64,000 bases of DNA from Escherichia phage vB_Eco_F27. Position numbers and translations under genes: made by a program. Numbering within the stretch: position 1 is the first letter of the stretch; each line of letters begins with the position of its first letter. Location: sequence record OP870146.1. One strand, written 5' to 3'. The notes beneath the pieces were generated by a model that did no database searches, was not told the DNA's origin, and worked only from the letters and a program-made list of their open reading frames with translations. Positions 5,680 through 11,029 of the stretch are shown here, in pieces.

Positions 5680-5877
5680 TTAGCAAGAATAACTAGATGA
5701 TACCCAGCCTTGAACAGTGATACTATTATGGGATAATGAGATCGCGTCCTGGAGATTCAGACCTGCGTTATCTTCAATCCATAATGTAACTTCTTCGCGT
5801 TCTTCTGTTGCAATTTGGAACAGGTTTTCCAGAGCAGCTACTGCCGTACGTACAGCACAATCTAATTCACGAGACAT
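5680..5877 (-). CDS. small protein, tandem paralog A (C-terminal QGWVSSSYSC), 65 aa
   Basis: ATG 5875-5877 with AAGGAAAC SD overlapping the stop of the upstream paralog. Confidence 0.55.
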   Translation of the reverse strand: MSRELDCAVRTAVAALENLFQIATEEREEVTLWIEDNAGLNLQDAISLSHNSITVQGWVSSSYSC

Positions 5878-5886
5878 ATTGTTTCC

Positions 5887-6159
5887 TTAGCAAGTGTGAG
5901 AAGATGCGACCCAACCACCAGTTTCGAGGCTCAGGTTGTAGTCGTATTGGTAAACGTCAGCCCATTCAGCATAGCCGTTTTTTGTACAACGTTCAAGATC
6001 GGCTTTAAGATGTCCGGGTGAATGATAGGTTCCACCCATACCATAAGCTGGATACAAGTCGAATGTTGTGTTTTGTTTATCAGCAATTTCTTTGGCAGCC
6101 TCAATAGCTGCATAGATTTTTGCTACAGCTTCAGCCAGTTCGGTTTGTTCTTTAGACAT
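5887..6159 (-). CDS. small protein, tandem paralog B (C-terminal GGWVASSHTC), 90 aa
   Basis: ATG 6157-6159 with AAGGAA SD. Confidence 0.55.
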   Translation of the reverse strand: MSKEQTELAEAVAKIYAAIEAAKEIADKQNTTFDLYPAYGMGGTYHSPGHLKADLERCTKNGYAEWADVYQYDYNLSLETGGWVASSHTC

Positions 6160-6168
6160 AATGATTCC

Positions 6169-6474
6169 TTAGCACAACGCAGAAGACGAAACCCAAGCAC
6201 CTTCAGTAATAACGTAACCATTACCTTCACGCTTAACATCGCCACCATTATTTTCAATTTCATCTTTCATCCACTGGGATACGATTTCACCCTTAGGATA
6301 ATAAGTACGACCACTACCATAATCACCTACAGAAAATGATACGGCATATTGGTCTGCGATCTTTGTTGCTTCTTCTTCGATACGTTCAGCTTGATTCAGA
6401 AGTTTATAAATTGCATCTGAAGCGGATTTGGCATCATTAAACTCTGGTACTTTAATTTCAATAATCTTACTCAT
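6169..6474 (-). CDS. small protein, tandem paralog C (C-terminal GAWVSSSALC), 101 aa
   Basis: ATG 6472-6474 with AAGGAATG SD; ATGA overlap with upstream gene. Confidence 0.55.
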   Translation of the reverse strand: MSKIIEIKVPEFNDAKSASDAIYKLLNQAERIEEEATKIADQYAVSFSVGDYGSGRTYYPKGEIVSQWMKDEIENNGGDVKREGNGYVITEGAWVSSSALC

Positions 6475-6830
6475 TTTCTACATTCCTTAATAAAGTTTTC
6501 GATTGTTTCATTTTCACGTCTAGCTAGGAGTTCATTATAACTAATCGTTTGAGAAGCGTAAACCTTTTTATTTTTCTTGTTGTGGTTTATAAAATCGTAG
6601 TAAAAATAGACTACAGTACAAAATGATGCGATGGATGCAAAGGCTTGGGTATACCGTAAGTCCTGCCATTGGTCTGTGAATCCACCAGTGTTCCCTATAA
6701 ATCCTAACACAACGCCGTCAATAAGAAATCCAACTAATCCAAAGGCAAATCCCATGCCAATACTCATAATAAAAATTAGAATGTTCTCACCAAGAGAAGG
6801 CCATACGGTTAAGAGTTGAGGCTTTTGCAT
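6471..6830 (-). CDS. small membrane protein, C-terminal ENFIKECRK tail, 119 aa
   Basis: ATG 6828-6830 with AAGGAAAT SD; hydrophobic segments LIFIMSIGMGFAFGLVGFLIDGVVLGFIG. Confidence 0.55.
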   Translation of the reverse strand: MQKPQLLTVWPSLGENILIFIMSIGMGFAFGLVGFLIDGVVLGFIGNTGGFTDQWQDLRYTQAFASIASFCTVVYFYYDFINHNKKNKKVYASQTISYNELLARRENETIENFIKECRK

Positions 6831-7204
6831 CTTATTTCCTTAACGAATTCCATAGCTTCTTCATATTCATACTTTTTAACAGCTTCATCATACTGAGCTT
6901 GGGCTTTTGCGCACTGAACTTTCCATTCGCGTACTCGAGCTCTATAATGACGGCCTTGGTGCCAATATCCTGCCCAATTAATAGGCATTAATAAAAATGG
7001 CACAATAAACGGCCCGGCTATAATAAGTAAAAACACTGCATCAGACGATATAACTTCACTAGAATCTAAAACAGCTCCTATAATCATAAAGATTAAAAAT
7101 GCTAAAGCTAAAATAGGGCCAAATAGTACTTCATTTGGGATTAATTTACGTTTGTATTCGTATGCCCAGGGCTTAATTGGCATGTACAGGGTTGGCTTTG
7201 ACAT
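6809..7204 (-). CDS. small membrane protein (C-terminal EFVKEIRCK), about 131 aa from ATG 7202-7204
   Basis: ORF track trimmed; two hydrophobic segments; start embedded in the ECR-encoding tail of the upstream gene. Confidence 0.45.
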   Translation of the reverse strand: MSKPTLYMPIKPWAYEYKRKLIPNEVLFGPILALAFLIFMIIGAVLDSSEVISSDAVFLLIIAGPFIVPFLLMPINWAGYWHQGRHYRARVREWKVQCAKAQAQYDEAVKKYEYEEAMEFVKEIRCKSLNS

Positions 7205-7775
7205 ATTCTCTACATTCCATAATAAATTGCTCAAGGATTAAATTGTTAGTGAAATTAGGACTAACAACCATAGTTTCATAAAGCGCATCAATAGCACTTA
7301 AAGCATCAACTCTTTTAAGCAAAGGCTTGCCTTCATACATAGTTTCAGAATCGATGATTAACGTAAAGTAATATTTTTTATTATCGACTAGAACTTCCGT
7401 ATCGATATAAAACATATTAGACCTCAGAAGCTTATCTCTAAAACCATAATAATCTTCAGAGCGTTCGCTGATATATTCCCATTCAGTGTTTAAACAACAA
7501 ACAGACCATGTAGGAGCAACGAAATCGGTGAATCTAATATCATGGTCTGCAACTAGTTTAGCAATAGCTCCGATATCATGAATCATAATACCTGGGGCTA
7601 ATAAAGATTTTCTGCTATGGCTAGCCGTTTTCTCAGTAGTCTCATAAGAAGACGACCAGTACCATTTACGTCCAGTTGCAACATATCGTAATGAATCAAC
7701 TAAAGATGTAGGTGGATTTACCTTATCTCGGAACTCTTCGAACATTGAGTCAATATCATTATTTTGGTTTCGCAT
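7173..7775 (-). CDS. hypothetical protein with FIMECR motif near C-terminus, 200 aa
   Basis: ORF track trimmed to ATG 7773-7775 with AAGGAG SD. Confidence 0.5.
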   Translation of the reverse strand: MRNQNNDIDSMFEEFRDKVNPPTSLVDSLRYVATGRKWYWSSSYETTEKTASHSRKSLLAPGIMIHDIGAIAKLVADHDIRFTDFVAPTWSVCCLNTEWEYISERSEDYYGFRDKLLRSNMFYIDTEVLVDNKKYYFTLIIDSETMYEGKPLLKRVDALSAIDALYETMVVSPNFTNNLILEQFIMECREYVKANPVHAN

Positions 7776-7798
7776 GTTAACTCCTTTATTATCCAAAA

Positions 7799-7816
7799 GG
7801 AGGACCGGAGTCCTCC
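7799..7816 (-). terminator. rho-independent terminator hairpin GGAGGAC-uccg-GUCCUCC followed by U-run (minus-strand sense)
   Basis: Perfect 7-bp GC-rich stem directly after the stop of CDS 7825-8418. Confidence 0.6.
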
Positions 7817-7824
7817 GTATTATT

Positions 7825-8418
7825 TTATTTCAAAGAGTTAATATATTCTTGTACATCAGCAGAAGTGGTTTCGACGCCGGCTGGAGTGCCATTGAACGTT
7901 TCAACACGAGTCAGAGTGTCTTCGATATCAACCTTAGTCAGTGCAGCGATTTCAATTACATCATCGGCCGTAGAGATACCAAGGGCATTGGCTGCTCGAG
8001 TTTCACGAATGTATTCGAGTTTGATTGCCAGGTTCTGACGAGCATCGTCAAGTTCAACCACCTTACGAGCAATTTCAATTCGCATAGCGGCATACCCGTC
8101 AGCTTTTGTATTAAGTTGTTCGGCAGTTCGACGATACAGAAGACCAAGCTTAGCATGCATGGTAACATCTTGTCCTTCAGCCAGGAGCTTACGAATTTCA
8201 CGTTCCTTAGAAGCGGCTTGCTTGTTCTTTTCATTAACAAGTTCGCGAATACGTTTTTCTTCATTAATAGATTTAACAGAAGCCGTTTTTAGTTCTTTGA
8301 TTTGGGTAATCAACTTATCTGCAGCTGCGTTATACTGTTCTTCGACAGTCAGATTTTTAGCCATAGCAGTACCAAGTTTAGTGCGGATGAATTCAACAAG
8401 TTTCTTCAGTGTGTTCAT
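7825..8418 (-). CDS. coiled-coil protein, possibly PspA/IM30-like, 197 aa
   Basis: ORF track trimmed from TTG to ATG 8416-8418; heptad-rich, charged sequence; family call is tentative. Confidence 0.4.
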
Positions 8419-8488
8419 ATTATTACCTTTCAATTGGTGGTTTATTATCCAACGAGAGCATTATACTCTGCTCTCAAGAGATTGTAAA

Positions 8489-8716
8489 TTATTTTTTAAT
8501 CAAATTGACATAAAACTCGGCGTCTTCCGGGTGCATGCCTTCGCAGTATTCTTCAACCATGAACTTCTTAACAGCTTCATAAGGACCGCTCAGATTAAGC
8601 TCAGTTGTCCAGAACTTGGAATCTTGGACCGAATCGATACGAACTTCAGGGTGACGGTTGCGAATAACTTCTTCAGTGTATTCATAATCAACGACATCAA
8701 TACTAACTGTAGCCAT
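8489..8716 (-). CDS. hypothetical protein, 75 aa
   Basis: ORF track; ATG 8714-8716; early promoter upstream. Confidence 0.45.
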   Translation of the reverse strand: MATVSIDVVDYEYTEEVIRNRHPEVRIDSVQDSKFWTTELNLSGPYEAVKKFMVEEYCEGMHPEDAEFYVNLIKK

Positions 8717-8745
8717 TTTGTTTCTCCTCTTGATTTGATGTGATT

Positions 8746-8774
8746 ACTATAACATAAACGTACTTAGATGTAAA
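8746..8774 (-). promoter_or_regulatory. early promoter (-35 TTTACA / -10 TATAGT)
   Basis: ATTTACAtctaagtacgtttatgtTATAGT on the minus strand. Confidence 0.5.
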
Positions 8775-8928
8775 TTATTTCAACGTCACCTTTAGCGGCT
8801 TTATAACCTTCAGCCCAAGATACAACAGAGTTTTTATCCGAGGATTCAAATTCAGGCATTGGACTTTCACCAATATTCACACAGTATGTTTCTTCATTTT
8901 CATCGAACCAAATAATTAAAGTAGTCAT
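8764..8928 (-). CDS. small hypothetical protein, 54 aa (MTTLIIWFDENEETYCVNIGESPMPEFESSDKNSVVSWAEGYKAAKGDVEIIYI)
   Basis: Not in ORF track (under 60 aa); ATG 8926-8928 preceded by GAGGAG SD within a promoter-leader cassette identical to the one at 45127-45173. Confidence 0.4.
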   Translation of the reverse strand: MTTLIIWFDENEETYCVNIGESPMPEFESSDKNSVVSWAEGYKAAKGDVEIIYI

Positions 8929-8958
8929 TTTGTTTACTCCTCTGTAGTTGATAAGTCT

Positions 8959-8987
8959 ATAGTATCACCATCCTTGGTGCTTGTACA
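8959..8987 (-). promoter_or_regulatory. early promoter (-35 TGTACA / -10 TACTAT)
   Basis: 17-bp spacing; leader carries GAGGAG SD. Confidence 0.45.
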
Positions 8988-8996
8988 TCATTATTT

Positions 8997-9302
8997 TTAA
9001 TTTTTCCAACTTAACAACTTGTAGTGTCCTTCATTCATACGTGGTTTATCCCAAGAAATACTAATATATGATTCGCTGTCAATAGAAGTCGCCGGGTTTT
9101 TCTCTACCGTAAGACCTTCACTTTCCAGCCATTCAATAGTATTTGCGCATAAATCAGAAGAACACCTAATCGGAAACCGGCAAGATTTTTCACCTTTAGC
9201 TGCAGTGTTATACATCTTTTCTAAAATACGCTTTTGCACGTTTTTAAAAATAGTTTCAGCAGATTCTTCAGATTTTTTATTCAGTTCAGTGTAAAGACTC
9301 AT
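8997..9302 (-). CDS. hypothetical protein, 101 aa
   Basis: ORF track; ATG 9300-9302; leader cataatattctcctcatgtttt is identical to that of CDS 4017-4322. Confidence 0.5.
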   Translation of the reverse strand: MSLYTELNKKSEESAETIFKNVQKRILEKMYNTAAKGEKSCRFPIRCSSDLCANTIEWLESEGLTVEKNPATSIDSESYISISWDKPRMNEGHYKLLSWKN

Positions 9303-9330
9303 AATATTCTCCTCATGTTTTGATAGGTCT

Positions 9331-9358
9331 ATAGTAACACATCTAGGGAAGAAGTAAA
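9331..9358 (-). promoter_or_regulatory. early promoter (-35 TTTACT / -10 TACTAT)
   Basis: Same cassette family. Confidence 0.45.
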
Positions 9359-9411
9359 CAACTTTTTCAGTAAGTTATAAACCCCCTAATGGGGACCGAA
9401 GTCCCCATTCT

Positions 9412-10038
9412 TTACTTACGAGTTTTTGCATATTGAGCAGCGTCAGCAGCCAAACGACCTGCCTGACGAAGTTTTTCTTTAATCGCATCGTGAAGTGGTT
9501 GAGTGTACTTCAAACCTTCGATAGTCAAATAAAGACGATAAAGGTCCGGGGTATCAAGGTTGTTGATATGTTGGCCATTACGAAGAATATTGAATTCACG
9601 AACGAGTGAAGATGTATCGGATTCAATATCACGAACAAGCGAAGATAGTTGTTTATATTTTTTTTCCAGACTAGAAGTATCAAACTTAAGAGCAGGAGCT
9701 TTAGGAGTTGCTTTTACTTCAGGCTTAGGCTCAGGTTTTGCTATTGCTTTAGGGGTCGCAGGTTTAGGAATGGAAGGAGTAGGTTTTACTTTAGGCGAAC
9801 CCGATTTAGCAGAAACACCACCACTAACAATATCTTTGAATGCTTTAGAAGCTCTGTAATATTCTTTTTGGCTGGAAGTGTCGATACCGTACATGGCTTG
9901 AACGTTTTTGAAAAACTCTGTACTAGTTTTTGTACCAGAAATAGCATCGTAAGCAGCTTGCCATTTCTCTTTTGTCATACGTACACCGGCTTCGGTGATT
10001 ACTTCCGTTTCGGCTAAAAATTCATTAAAAGTATACAT
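9412..10038 (-). CDS. internal head protein-like (N-terminus MYTFNEFLAE) with Pro/Lys-rich linker, 208 aa
   Basis: ORF track; ATG 10036-10038; late promoter TATAAATA about 36 nt upstream; PKVKPTPSIPKPATPKAIAKPEPKPEVKATPKAP segment. Confidence 0.5.
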   Translation of the reverse strand: MYTFNEFLAETEVITEAGVRMTKEKWQAAYDAISGTKTSTEFFKNVQAMYGIDTSSQKEYYRASKAFKDIVSGGVSAKSGSPKVKPTPSIPKPATPKAIAKPEPKPEVKATPKAPALKFDTSSLEKKYKQLSSLVRDIESDTSSLVREFNILRNGQHINNLDTPDLYRLYLTIEGLKYTQPLHDAIKEKLRQAGRLAADAAQYAKTRK

Positions 10039-10073
10039 CGATGGTCCTTAGAAAGTAGGTTTATTGTTTACTA

Positions 10074-10081
10074 TATTTATA
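10074..10081 (-). promoter_or_regulatory. late promoter TATAAATA (minus strand)
   Basis: Plus-strand tatttata; T4 late promoter consensus. Confidence 0.55.
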
Positions 10082-10082
10082 C

Positions 10083-10111
10083 AAAAAAGCCCCAACCTTT
10101 CGGAAGGGGCT
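10083..10111 (-). terminator. rho-independent terminator after the RNA gene cluster
   Basis: Minus-strand sense AGCCCCUUCCGAAAGGUUGGGGCU followed by UUUUUU. Confidence 0.65.
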
Positions 10112-10153
10112 ATATACCTTGTCGGGGTTTCCACCTACTAAGGCAAGTGTTTG

Positions 10154-10312
10154 TACGAAACGCCGGGATTCGAACCCGGTTATTGAGTAGTTGACGCTAC
10201 TCAATATTTTTAAAAGGCCATATCTCGACCATATCCGAACGTTCCGTCAAAAACGCTACTCGGCTTACGGCAAAGATATTTCCTCGAATCGATAATTCGG
10301 TGCGCCGTTTCT
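10154..10312 (-). ncRNA. tRNA-like small stable RNA (analogous to T4 rnaC/rnaD species); boundaries approximate
   Basis: 3' end has a canonical T-arm CCGGG-TTCGAAT-CCCGG followed by CGTTTCG, which can pair with GAAACG about 150 nt upstream; internal 8-bp hairpin TTGAGTAG/CTACTCAA; no ORF; sits in the tRNA cluster. Confidence 0.35.
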
Positions 10313-10414
10313 GCTGTGATGTAAGGGGATATTAACAAATCGTAAAGATTTATTAAGACCAGTCCTTACTCAGGGAACATCAGTCCGACGACTTACCGGT
10401 AGCGACCCGGCTTC

Positions 10415-10759
10415 TTATTTTGGCATATCATCAATTTGCTCTCGACGCCGACGCCATAGATTAATCGCTTCATAAACACATTCTGCGTTTGGTATATGAC
10501 GGCAATAATATAATGATTCGCGTTTCTGGAATCGATGTTGCAATGGGATTTCGTTTAAAAGGTCTTTACGGTCAAAGTATTCAAAACTAGTTAACCCGGA
10601 ACGGTTTTTAATGAACTTCCAATGACCAAATTCATTTTGAACATAGATGTAATCTGCATGTTGGTATAACAAATTAATCAATCGGTCTGAAATAACTGTA
10701 TCATGTTCGTTAAAATAAAACGTTAAATCATGAACTACTAAGTAAACATTACCTTTCAT
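10415..10759 (-). CDS. hypothetical protein within the RNA gene cluster, 114 aa
   Basis: ORF track trimmed to ATG 10757-10759 with GAGGAAA SD, 19 nt downstream of tRNA-Arg; no GIY-YIG or HNH motif seen. Confidence 0.45.
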   Translation of the reverse strand: MKGNVYLVVHDLTFYFNEHDTVISDRLINLLYQHADYIYVQNEFGHWKFIKNRSGLTSFEYFDRKDLLNEIPLQHRFQKRESLYYCRHIPNAECVYEAINLWRRRREQIDDMPK

Positions 10760-10777: not shown

Positions 10778-10854
<77 letters not shown>

Positions 10855-10954: not shown

Positions 10955-11029
10955 TGGTGGCCCTGGCTGGTTTCGATCCAGCTACCTATCAGTTATGAGC
11001 TGACAGCTCTCCCATTGAGCTACAGGGCC
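10955..11029 (-). tRNA. tRNA with CAU anticodon (elongator Met, or Ile2 if lysidine-modified), 75 nt, CCA encoded
   Basis: Manual cloverleaf: acceptor GGCCCTG/CAGGGCC, D-arm GCTC-AATGGGA-GAGC, anticodon loop CTCATAA, T-arm GCTGG-ATCGAAA-CCAGC; ends resemble E. coli tRNA-Ile2. Confidence 0.85.

What the first reader, a model, noticed from the sequence alone, without database searches (positions are those of the whole stretch)
7825..8418. Coiled-coil protein with possible PspA/IM30-like character, isolated by its own terminator
The 197-aa protein is almost entirely heptad-like and charged, with a segment ([51 protein letters not shown]) that resembles the PspA/Vipp1 membrane-stress family. A strong terminator (7799-7816) follows it. 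A phage-encoded PspA-like protein could stabilise the inner membrane during infection or against holin-like toxins.
Basis: inference. Interest (0 to 1): 0.4.

Follow-up and report, generated by a model that had tools for sequence, protein, structure and literature searches.

The report
Phage T4 e.6: a PspA-like protein
This gene is the counterpart of phage T4 gene e.6, still labelled "hypothetical", and it turns out to be a very divergent phage copy of the bacterial membrane-protecting protein PspA/Vipp1, made early in infection; its actual role is untested.

Summary
The ORF is real. It lies at 7825-8418 on the minus strand and encodes 197 aa. The protein is identical to RB69 e.6 and 88% identical to T4 e.6, and about 1,100 sequenced phages carry a homologue. 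It has its own sigma-70-type early promoter and a stable 3' hairpin.

The protein itself does not hit Pfam PspA_IM30. Three other lines still link it to PspA/Vipp1:
- **Profile comparison:** a 44-sequence family profile aligns end to end with PspA/Vipp1 in hhalign (92-94% probability, score 49). Reversed controls score 18-19 and block-shuffled controls at most 40.
- **Divergent members:** members of the same family and PHROG (phrog_1203) hit PspA_IM30 directly. Two exceed Pfam's gathering score, and an e.6 orthologue from a T4-like phage has PspA_IM30 as its top hit.
- **Predicted structure:** the AlphaFold model has the alpha0 / long hairpin / alpha4-5 layout. Its best Foldseek matches among solved structures are Vipp1, then archaeal ESCRT-III.

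It is not wholly new: a 2022 paper proposed phrog_1203 as PspA from a Salmonella Kuttervirus. T4/RB69 e.6 was not named there and remains unannotated.

Function is inferred, most likely membrane and proton-motive-force protection during infection. T4 e.6 knock-down had no fitness effect in a laboratory host.

The parts
8460..8488 (-). Sigma-70-type (T4 early-type) promoter, TTTACA-17 nt-TATAAT, directly upstream of the gene
   Evidence: The consensus scan gives 11 of 12 matches, the best site in 7000-10500. T4 has TTTACA-17-TATTAT at the same place upstream of e.6. T4 e.6 RNA is classed as early (PMC9697503 supplement).
8426..8430 (-). Shine-Dalgarno-like AAAGG, 7 nt before the ATG
   Evidence: Read directly from the sequence.
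7825..8418 (-). CDS of 197 aa, the orthologue of T4/RB69 gene e.6 (phrog_1203); a divergent PspA/Vipp1 (ESCRT-III superfamily) protein
   Evidence: ORF and orthology. Homology to PspA/Vipp1. Fold.
8353..8412 (-). Residues 3-22: predicted N-terminal cationic amphipathic helix (alpha0 equivalent)
   Evidence: Helix 3-20 or 3-22 in the two models, at low pLDDT. Hydrophobic moment is 0.43, against 0.42 for E. coli PspA and 0.57 for Vipp1, and net charge is +4. It aligns with PspA/Vipp1 residues 1-22.
8179..8346 (-). Residues 25-80: first arm of the long helical hairpin (alpha1)
   Evidence: Models have pLDDT 84-97 here. Heptad-like periodicity has p about 0.004. It aligns with PspA alpha1.
7984..8163 (-). 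Residues 86-145: second arm of the hairpin (alpha2/alpha3).
   Evidence: Structure. Invariant K90, L91, L94 and R96 in the close family. It aligns with the PspA 'LARAAL' region.
7828..7983 (-). Residues 146-197: short C-terminal part with predicted helices 152-160, 166-174 and 186-196 (shortened alpha4 and alpha5 equivalents). DTLTRVETF aligns with PspA EAMARFESF, and [10 protein letters not shown] with PspA AISEQLAQLK
   Evidence: Global hhalign and the models. pLDDT is low (48-61) for residues 151-180.
7799..7816 (-). Stable 3' hairpin, GGAGGAC-UCCG-GUCCUCC, followed by UUUU: a partial terminator and/or RNA-stabilising element
   Evidence: Detected and folded (-14.4 kcal/mol). It is annotated as a putative terminator in G2469. 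T4 has a different hairpin (UUCG loop, no U run) at the same place.

Best explanation
The gene encodes the RB69/T4 e.6 protein. It is a compact (197 aa), highly divergent phage member of the PspA/Vipp1(IM30) branch of the ESCRT-III superfamily. It has an N-terminal cationic amphipathic helix, a long alpha1-alpha2/3 hairpin, and shortened alpha4 and alpha5.

**Shown or well supported:** it is transcribed from its own early promoter, and in T4 the RNA is early and the protein is detected.

**Inferred by analogy with PspA/Vipp1:** it binds the cytoplasmic face of the inner membrane through alpha0 and the hairpin. It self-assembles through hairpin packing and alpha5-to-hairpin contacts. It thereby limits ion leakage and keeps the proton-motive force up during infection. 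This would matter because T4-type phages shut off host gene expression, so the host cannot induce its own psp operon. The membrane is meanwhile stressed by DNA injection, superinfection, phage membrane proteins, holin accumulation or membrane-depolarising abortive-infection effectors.

Homology is well supported. The membrane-protection mechanism is inference.
For: **Identity and family**
- Identical to RB69 e.6 and 88% identical to T4 e.6; assigned to phrog_1203 at E 4.6e-87.
- An exhaustive HMMER search finds a narrow family of 45 clusters, mostly about 200 aa plus some shorter fragments.

**Profile-profile comparison**
- hhalign of the family (A2) against PspA+Vipp1 (A3): 92.5% probability, E 4.9e-7, starting at residue 1 of both.
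- Global mode: 94%, E 2.5e-8, covering the C-terminal motifs as well.
- Controls: reversed alignments score 18.5 and 18.9 (about 1% probability). Block shuffles reach at most 25.9, 27.2 and 39.7.
- Without the five Pfam-hitting members the result is still 84.4%, E 7e-6. Against Vipp1 alone it is 90.3%.

**Direct Pfam PspA_IM30 hits in family members**
- P0063 scores 39.0 bits and P0057 35.1 bits, both above the gathering score of 33.9. P0062 scores 22.3, P0060 22.1 and P0052 12.3 bits (E 0.13).
- Klebsiella phage May gp064 scores 32.1 bits. Straboviridae phage Lw1 'E.6' scores 20.9 bits as its top hit.
- The five P-numbered members match the e.6 profile full length at E 1e-17 to 1e-29.

**Other sequence and structure evidence**
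- A profile search against PDB sequences puts Vipp1 among six weak top hits, in a collinear alignment.
- AlphaFold layout: H3-22, H25-80, H86-145, then short helices.
- Foldseek against PDB: ranks 1-8 are Vipp1, followed by CdvB2.
- Foldseek against BFVD: after family members come a Snf7 protein and a phage 'PspA/IM30 family protein'.
- The alpha0 helix is amphipathic and carries +4 charge.

**Expression and prior proposal**
- Early promoter. T4 e.6 is 'early RNA / middle protein', and the protein is detected (PMC9697503 supplement).
- phrog_1203 was independently proposed as PspA from HHpred against 4WHE (PMC9409062).
Against: **Sequence**
- The protein itself and T4 e.6 give no PspA_IM30 hit in Pfam, and nothing in NCBIfam.
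- A profile of close T4-like sequences alone is at background against PspA/Vipp1 (8.3%, score 25.9, against 23.6 for the reversed control).
- Identity to PspA in the alignment is only 10-11%.
- The PspA side of the comparison has low diversity (Neff 1.8).

**Structure**
- Foldseek E-values are modest (1.7e-3 at best).

**Context and phenotype**
- No pspB/pspC/pspF- or liaI-like partner is present. Membrane-protein neighbours are not conserved across T4-like genera.
- T4 e.6 knock-down by CRISPRi-ART was 'Not Fit', meaning no fitness effect in a laboratory host (PMC11879866 supplement).
- No experiment on membrane binding or oligomerisation exists.
Confidence: 0.55

Rival explanations
1. e.6 is a generic helical coiled-coil protein with no common ancestry with PspA. 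The resemblance comes from shared heptad composition, and the protein does something unrelated, for example acting as a scaffold or adaptor.
For: - No direct Pfam or PDB sequence hit for this protein.
- The close-family profile is at background against PspA/Vipp1.
- Many weak coiled-coil Pfam hits appear.
- Identity to PspA is only 10-11%.
Against: - Reversed and block-shuffled controls keep composition and local periodicity. They score 18-40, against 49 for the real comparison.
- The alignment is collinear from residue 1 to the C-terminus of both families.
- PspA_IM30 is the only family that diverse members hit at E 1e-7 to 1e-9.
- The top Foldseek PDB hits are exclusively Vipp1 or ESCRT-III.
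Confidence: 0.1
2. e.6 is a PspA mimic that acts on host machinery rather than on the membrane itself. It could co-polymerise with or displace host PspA, bind PspF/PspBC, or disturb a defence system that uses PspA rods as a platform. One such case is a Bacillus CBASS cyclase that is conjugated to PspA.
For: - Homology to PspA.
- Early expression, as is typical of host-takeover and anti-defence genes.
- Dispensable in a defence-poor laboratory host.
- The CBASS cyclase-PspA conjugation is described in bioRxiv 10.1101/2023.09.29.560134.
Against: - The family profile resembles cyanobacterial Vipp1 more than the host's own PspA: 90.3% against 21.9% when each is used alone. A mimic of the E. coli protein should show the opposite.
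- T4-type host shut-off, which is established knowledge and was not tested here, makes control of PspF-dependent transcription unnecessary.
- The CBASS link is shown only in Bacillus.
Confidence: 0.12
3. e.6 remodels membrane for the phage's own purposes, for example by organising membrane-associated replication or assembly sites or by producing vesicles, rather than by repairing damage.
For: - ESCRT-III superfamily proteins remodel membranes (PMC8281802).
- In T4 and RB69 the gene sits just upstream of small membrane proteins e.4 and e.3.
- In Ackermannviridae it is followed by the phrog_11433 membrane protein.
Against: - Knock-down has no fitness effect, so it is not needed for replication or assembly in standard conditions.
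- The membrane neighbours are not conserved in Lw1 or Aswh_1.
- No such compartment is known for T4-like phages (my own knowledge).
Confidence: 0.1

Closest known systems
Bacterial PspA / cyanobacterial and plastid Vipp1 (IM30) / LiaH (Pfam PF04012, ESCRT-III superfamily)
   Same: - Collinear profile alignment over the whole length.
- An N-terminal amphipathic helix, a long alpha1-alpha2/3 hairpin, and alpha4 and alpha5 equivalents.
- Best Foldseek matches among solved structures.
   Different: - 197 aa instead of about 220-270, with alpha4 and the linkers much shortened.
- The 'AEDP' junction motif is replaced by N-(L/T)-(S/T)-x-E-(D/E).
- Too divergent for the Pfam model.
- Phage-encoded, expressed from an early promoter, with no pspBC/pspF or liaI partner.
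phrog_1203 member Gp_125 of Salmonella phage SeF3a (Kuttervirus), proposed as a phage PspA and anti-abortive-infection factor (Gendre et al. 2022, PMC9409062)
   Same: - Same PHROG family.
- Same length class.
- The same inference of PspA homology, and the same kind of functional hypothesis.
   Different: - The Ackermannviridae members are much closer to PspA: direct Pfam hits at 32-39 bits.
- They are followed by a phrog_11433 membrane protein.
- They share only about 22-23% identity with the window protein.
- The paper does not mention T4-like e.6.
Phage T4 gene e.6 (P39224; 'conserved hypothetical protein')
   Same: Orthologue: 88% identity, same length, and the same promoter-gene-hairpin layout.
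   Different: - In T4 the upstream neighbours are e.7 and e.8. Here they are a FRD3-like ORF and others.
- The hairpin sequence differs.
Archaeal and eukaryotic ESCRT-III (CdvB, Snf7/CHMP)
   Same: Hairpin-based fold. CdvB2 and Snf7 appear among the structural matches.
   Different: No detectable sequence relationship was tested or found here. There is no Vps4-type ATPase or MIM motif context.
Canonical PspA/IM30 proteins annotated in other phages (for example Acinetobacter phage vB_AbaM_ME3, A0A172Q0S7)
   Same: Phage-encoded PspA-type fold.
   Different: Those are recognisable by standard annotation and are 229 aa long. The match to the e.6 model is weak (E 5e-2), so this is probably a separate acquisition or lineage.

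Membership tests
PspA/IM30 family (Pfam PF04012) | The protein itself matches the Pfam PspA_IM30 model at or above the gathering score (33.9 bits) | tested here: not met
   No PspA_IM30 hit at E <= 10 for the window protein or for T4 e.6.
PspA/IM30 family (Pfam PF04012) | Family-level profile-profile similarity to PspA/Vipp1, collinear and above coiled-coil background | tested here: met
   hhalign gives 92.5% (local) and 94% (global) probability, score 49.2. Reversed controls score 18.5-18.9 and shuffled controls at most 39.7. The result is 84.4% without the Pfam-hitting members. Caveat: the close-family-only profile is not significant.
PspA/IM30 family (Pfam PF04012) | Transitive link: undoubted relatives of the protein are themselves members | tested here: met
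   P0063 (39.0 bits) and P0057 (35.1 bits) exceed the gathering score. May gp064 scores 32.1, P0062 22.3, P0060 22.1 and Lw1 E.6 20.9 bits. The P-numbered members match the e.6 profile full length at E 1e-17 to 1e-20. May gp064 is in the same PHROG.
ESCRT-III superfamily (PspA/Vipp1/Snf7/CdvB) | Core helices alpha1-alpha5 with a long alpha1-alpha2/3 hairpin | tested here: met
   Two AlphaFold models show H25-80, H86-145 and short helices at 152-160, 166-174 and 186-196. The hairpin has pLDDT 85-97. This is a prediction, and the alpha4 region has low confidence.
ESCRT-III superfamily (PspA/Vipp1/Snf7/CdvB) | N-terminal amphipathic helix alpha0 used for membrane binding | tested here: met
   Helix 3-22, hydrophobic moment 0.43 (PspA 0.42, Vipp1 0.57), charge +4, no transmembrane segment. 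Membrane binding itself was not tested.
ESCRT-III superfamily (PspA/Vipp1/Snf7/CdvB) | Closest structural neighbours are family members | tested here: inconclusive
ESCRT-III superfamily (PspA/Vipp1/Snf7/CdvB) | Self-assembly into rings, rods or carpets on membranes through hairpin packing and alpha5-to-hairpin contacts | not testable with these tools
   This needs purified protein, electron microscopy or multimer modelling.
Bacterial Psp / Lia stress system | Genomic association with pspB/pspC/pspF or liaI-type partners | tested here: not met
   The neighbours are phage ORFs of unknown function. The membrane proteins e.4 and e.3 lie downstream here and in T4, but no membrane protein is found next to the gene in Lw1 or Aswh_1.
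Intrinsic (Rho-independent) terminator | G+C-rich hairpin immediately followed by a U run | tested here: inconclusive
   The hairpin is stable at -14.4 kcal/mol, but only four U follow it. The T4 counterpart has no U run. The next gene starts 24 nt downstream without a promoter.
T4-type early (sigma-70) promoter | -35 and -10 hexamers with 17 nt spacing upstream of the gene, and early transcription | tested here: met
   TTTACA-17-TATAAT with 11 of 12 matches, conserved in T4. T4 e.6 RNA is classed as early (PMC9697503 supplement). No transcript mapping exists for this phage.

The most novel reading that the evidence does not exclude
T4-type and Vi1-type phages, about 1,100 sequenced genomes including T4 itself, carry their own early-expressed ESCRT-III/PspA-like membrane-repair polymer. 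It would replace the host phage-shock response that the phage has shut off. It would also act as a general counter-defence against abortive-infection systems that kill by depolarising the inner membrane, such as Rex-like channels and membrane-targeting CBASS or retron effectors. This would explain why it is dispensable in defence-poor laboratory strains.
Probability: 0.3. Interest if true: 0.75.

Novelty: new member of a known kind. Interest (0 to 1): 0.45.

Why it matters
T4 is the reference phage, and roughly half of its genes still have no function. e.6 is listed as unknown in GenBank, in PHROGs v4 and in a 2025 genome-wide knock-down study.

Placing it in the PspA/Vipp1/ESCRT-III superfamily gives a concrete, testable function for a gene conserved in more than a thousand phage genomes. 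It extends a 2022 in-silico proposal for a few Kutterviruses to the whole T4-like group.

If the protein really protects the host membrane, it would be a virus-encoded ESCRT-III-type system in bacteria. It would also be a new type of anti-abortive-infection strategy, based on repair rather than inhibition. Its compact size (197 aa) could make it a useful minimal model for PspA/Vipp1 assembly.

Tried and rejected
- **Literature searches on 'e.6':** the term matches numbered items in unrelated papers, and no main-text mention of T4 e.6 was found. Only supplementary tables mention it.
- **Direct sequence searches:** Pfam, NCBIfam and phmmer against PDB for the protein itself returned nothing useful.
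- **Diversifying the PspA profile:** both the large protein search and the genome-contig scan returned only Enterobacterales PspA at 80-100% identity. The PspA side therefore rests on E. coli-type PspA plus Synechocystis Vipp1, whose sequence was read from PDB alignments.
- **AlphaFold database (afdb50):** not available.
- **Conserved membrane-protein partner:** e.5 is unrelated to the Ackermannviridae downstream membrane protein. Lw1 and Aswh_1 have no membrane protein next to the gene. The idea is rejected for T4-like phages, although the phrog_1203 + phrog_11433 pair is kept in two Ackermannviridae genera.
- **'Host specificity protein' and 'tail completion protein':** these names are attached to orthologues in UniRef and GenBank. 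Nothing in the sequence, the fold or the literature seen here supports them.

Full report
**What is there**

The window is a T4-like phage of the genus Mosigvirus. Bases 7000-9500 are 98.8% identical to Escherichia phage vB_EcoM_G2469. The protein is identical to RB69 e.6 and 88% identical to T4 e.6, which is annotated 'conserved hypothetical protein'. tblastn finds a full-length homologue in 1,101 of 50,697 phage records from Escherichia, Klebsiella, Shigella, Aeromonas, Enterobacter and other hosts. It belongs to phrog_1203, 'unknown function'. An exhaustive HMMER search of 1.84 billion cluster representatives finds only 45 clusters, mostly about 200 aa plus some shorter fragments, so this is a narrow, phage-restricted family.

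**Observation check**

- Two AlphaFold models (mean pLDDT 76.7 and 78.2) are 78-83% helical. They show H3-22, H25-80, H86-145 and short helices at 152-160, 166-174 and 186-196.
- 32% of residues are charged. Heptad-like periodicity is significant for residues 25-80 (p about 0.004) and weak for residues 86-145 (p about 0.12).
- The hairpin at 7799-7816 is real: GGAGGAC-UCCG-GUCCUCC, -14.4 kcal/mol.
- It is followed by only four U. T4 has a different hairpin (GGGGC-UUCG-GCCCC) without a U run at the same place.
- The next gene, e.5, starts 24 bases downstream with no promoter in between. The hairpin is therefore a conserved 3' element that probably terminates only partly or stabilises the RNA.
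- The gene also has its own strong sigma-70-type promoter, TTTACA-17-TATAAT at 8488-8460. It is conserved in T4 as TTTACA-17-TATTAT.

**Is it PspA-like?**

Direct tests fail. There is no PspA_IM30 hit in Pfam even at E <= 10, nothing with phmmer against PDB sequences, and nothing in NCBIfam. A profile of 22 close homologues against PDB sequences gave six weak hits. Three of them are Synechocystis Vipp1 (E 0.8-1.8), aligned collinearly with query 6-139 matching Vipp1 6-141.

I then built a 44-sequence alignment (A2) from the exhaustive search. I compared it with an alignment of E. coli-type PspA plus Synechocystis Vipp1 (A3).
- hhalign gives 92.5% probability, E 4.9e-7 and score 49.2, with e.6 residues 1-161 aligned to PspA 1-159.
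- In global mode it gives 94% and E 2.5e-8 over both full lengths. This pairs e.6 DTLTRVETF with PspA EAMARFESF, and the C-terminal [10 protein letters not shown] with AISEQLAQLK.

Coiled coils produce spurious matches, so I ran controls.
- Reversing either alignment gives scores of 18.5 and 18.9, about 1% probability.
- Forty block shuffles at each of 7, 14 and 28 columns give maxima of 25.9, 27.2 and 39.7.
- Removing the five members that hit Pfam themselves still gives 84.4% and E 7e-6.
- Vipp1 alone gives 90.3%, but E. coli PspA alone gives only 21.9%.
- The close T4-like profile alone is at background, at 8.3%. This explains why standard annotation misses the relationship.

**Transitive evidence**

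Scanning each family member against Pfam shows that PspA_IM30 is the only family hit at strong E-values, by 5 of 44 members.
- P0063 scores 39.0 bits (E 8.9e-10) and P0057 35.1 bits (E 1.4e-8). Both exceed the gathering score of 33.9.
- P0062 scores 22.3, P0060 22.1 and P0052 12.3 bits.
- All alignments are collinear, with protein residues 2-156 matching model positions 2-158.
- These five proteins match the e.6 profile over their full length at E 1e-17 to 1e-29, and they carry the e.6-specific C-terminal motifs.
- P0063 is about 85% identical to proteins of Ackermannviridae such as Klebsiella phage May gp064. That protein is in phrog_1203 and scores 32.1 bits on PspA_IM30.
- Within Straboviridae, the Lw1 protein annotated 'E.6' has PspA_IM30 as its top Pfam hit, at 20.9 bits and E 3e-4.

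**Structure**

- Foldseek of the model against the PDB ranks Vipp1 entries 1-8 (best E 1.7e-3), then archaeal CdvB2.
- Against viral models, the five family members are followed by a Megaviridae Snf7 protein and a 'PspA/IM30 family protein' of an Acinetobacter phage.
- The N-terminal helix is amphipathic, with a hydrophobic moment of 0.43 (PspA 0.42, Vipp1 0.57), and carries +4 charge. The protein has no transmembrane segment.
- These features match the defining anatomy described for the superfamily: alpha0 for membrane binding, a hairpin, hinges, and an alpha5 needed for assembly (PMC8281802).

**Context and expression**

- In T4 and here, e.6 is followed by e.5 (soluble) and the small membrane proteins e.4 and e.3.
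- In Ackermannviridae it is followed by a phrog_11433 membrane protein.
- In Lw1 it lies between nrdD and nrdG, and in Aswh_1 it has no membrane neighbour. No partner is therefore conserved across T4-like phages.
- In T4, e.6 RNA is early and the protein is detected and classed as middle (PMC9697503 supplement).
- CRISPRi-ART knock-down of T4 e.6 gave no fitness effect in a laboratory host. That study still lists the gene as unknown, phrog_1203 (PMC11879866 supplement).

**Prior art**

Gendre et al. 2022 (PMC9409062) reported that Gp_125 of Salmonella phage SeF3a (phrog_1203) is homologous to PspA by comparison with pdb70 (4WHE). They proposed renaming phrog_1203 'phage_shock_protein_A' and suggested an anti-abortive-infection role through preservation of the proton-motive force. 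They do not mention T4-like e.6. I found no experimental work.

**Interpretation**

Homology to the PspA/Vipp1 branch of the ESCRT-III superfamily is well supported; I put it at about 0.85. The mechanism is inferred by analogy. It assumes early synthesis, membrane binding through alpha0 and the hairpin, and self-assembly. The result would be protection of the inner membrane and the proton-motive force while the host cannot mount its own Psp response.

Three rivals remain:
- a generic coiled coil (0.1);
- a PspA mimic acting on host Psp proteins or on PspA-dependent defence such as the Bacillus CBASS cyclase-PspA conjugate (bioRxiv 10.1101/2023.09.29.560134) (0.12);
- membrane remodelling for the phage's own purposes (0.1).

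**Verdict**

The terminator is weaker than claimed. The family-level idea was already published in silico for a distant member. Novelty: a new member of a known kind. Interest: moderate (0.45).

Noticed in passing
window 6169-6474, 5887-6159, 5680-5877 (all minus strand): Three tandem small ORFs (101, 90 and 65 aa) look like paralogues. All start MSK or MSR and end in an invariant WV-x-SS-xx-C motif (GAWVSSSALC, GGWVASSHTC, QGWVSSSYSC). The first matches phrog_899, unknown function.
   Followed up: partly
window 6471-7201 (minus strand): e.3 (6471-6830) and e.4 (6809-7201); e.5 at 7173-7775: e.4 and e.3 are small predicted membrane proteins just downstream of e.6 and e.5. e.5 and e.4 overlap by 29 nt, and e.4 and e.3 by 22 nt, which suggests translational coupling.
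   Followed up: partly
window 7799-7816 and T4 locus L003 5600-5615: The hairpins after e.6 have UNCG-type tetraloops (UCCG here, UUCG in T4) on completely different stems. The position is conserved but the sequence is not.
   Followed up: partly
window 10778-10854 and 10955-11029 (minus strand): tRNA-Arg(tct) and tRNA-Met(cat) genes, as annotated in the G2469 relative.
   Followed up: yes
window 8489-8716 (minus strand): A 75-aa ORF is annotated 'FRD3 protein' in relatives. It matches only the C-terminal 74 positions (317-390) of the 391-position phrog_1764 profile.
   Followed up: no
database names of e.6 orthologues (no window coordinates): UniRef and several GenBank records call e.6 orthologues 'Host specificity protein'. 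The Ackermannviridae homologue in Klebsiella phage UPM 2146 is called 'tail completion protein'. Nothing seen here supports either name.
   Followed up: partly
L085 (Escherichia phage Lw1) 2998-3594: In this Pseudotevenvirus the e.6 homologue lies between nrdD and nrdG. The gene therefore moves independently of the e.2-e.8 block.
   Followed up: no
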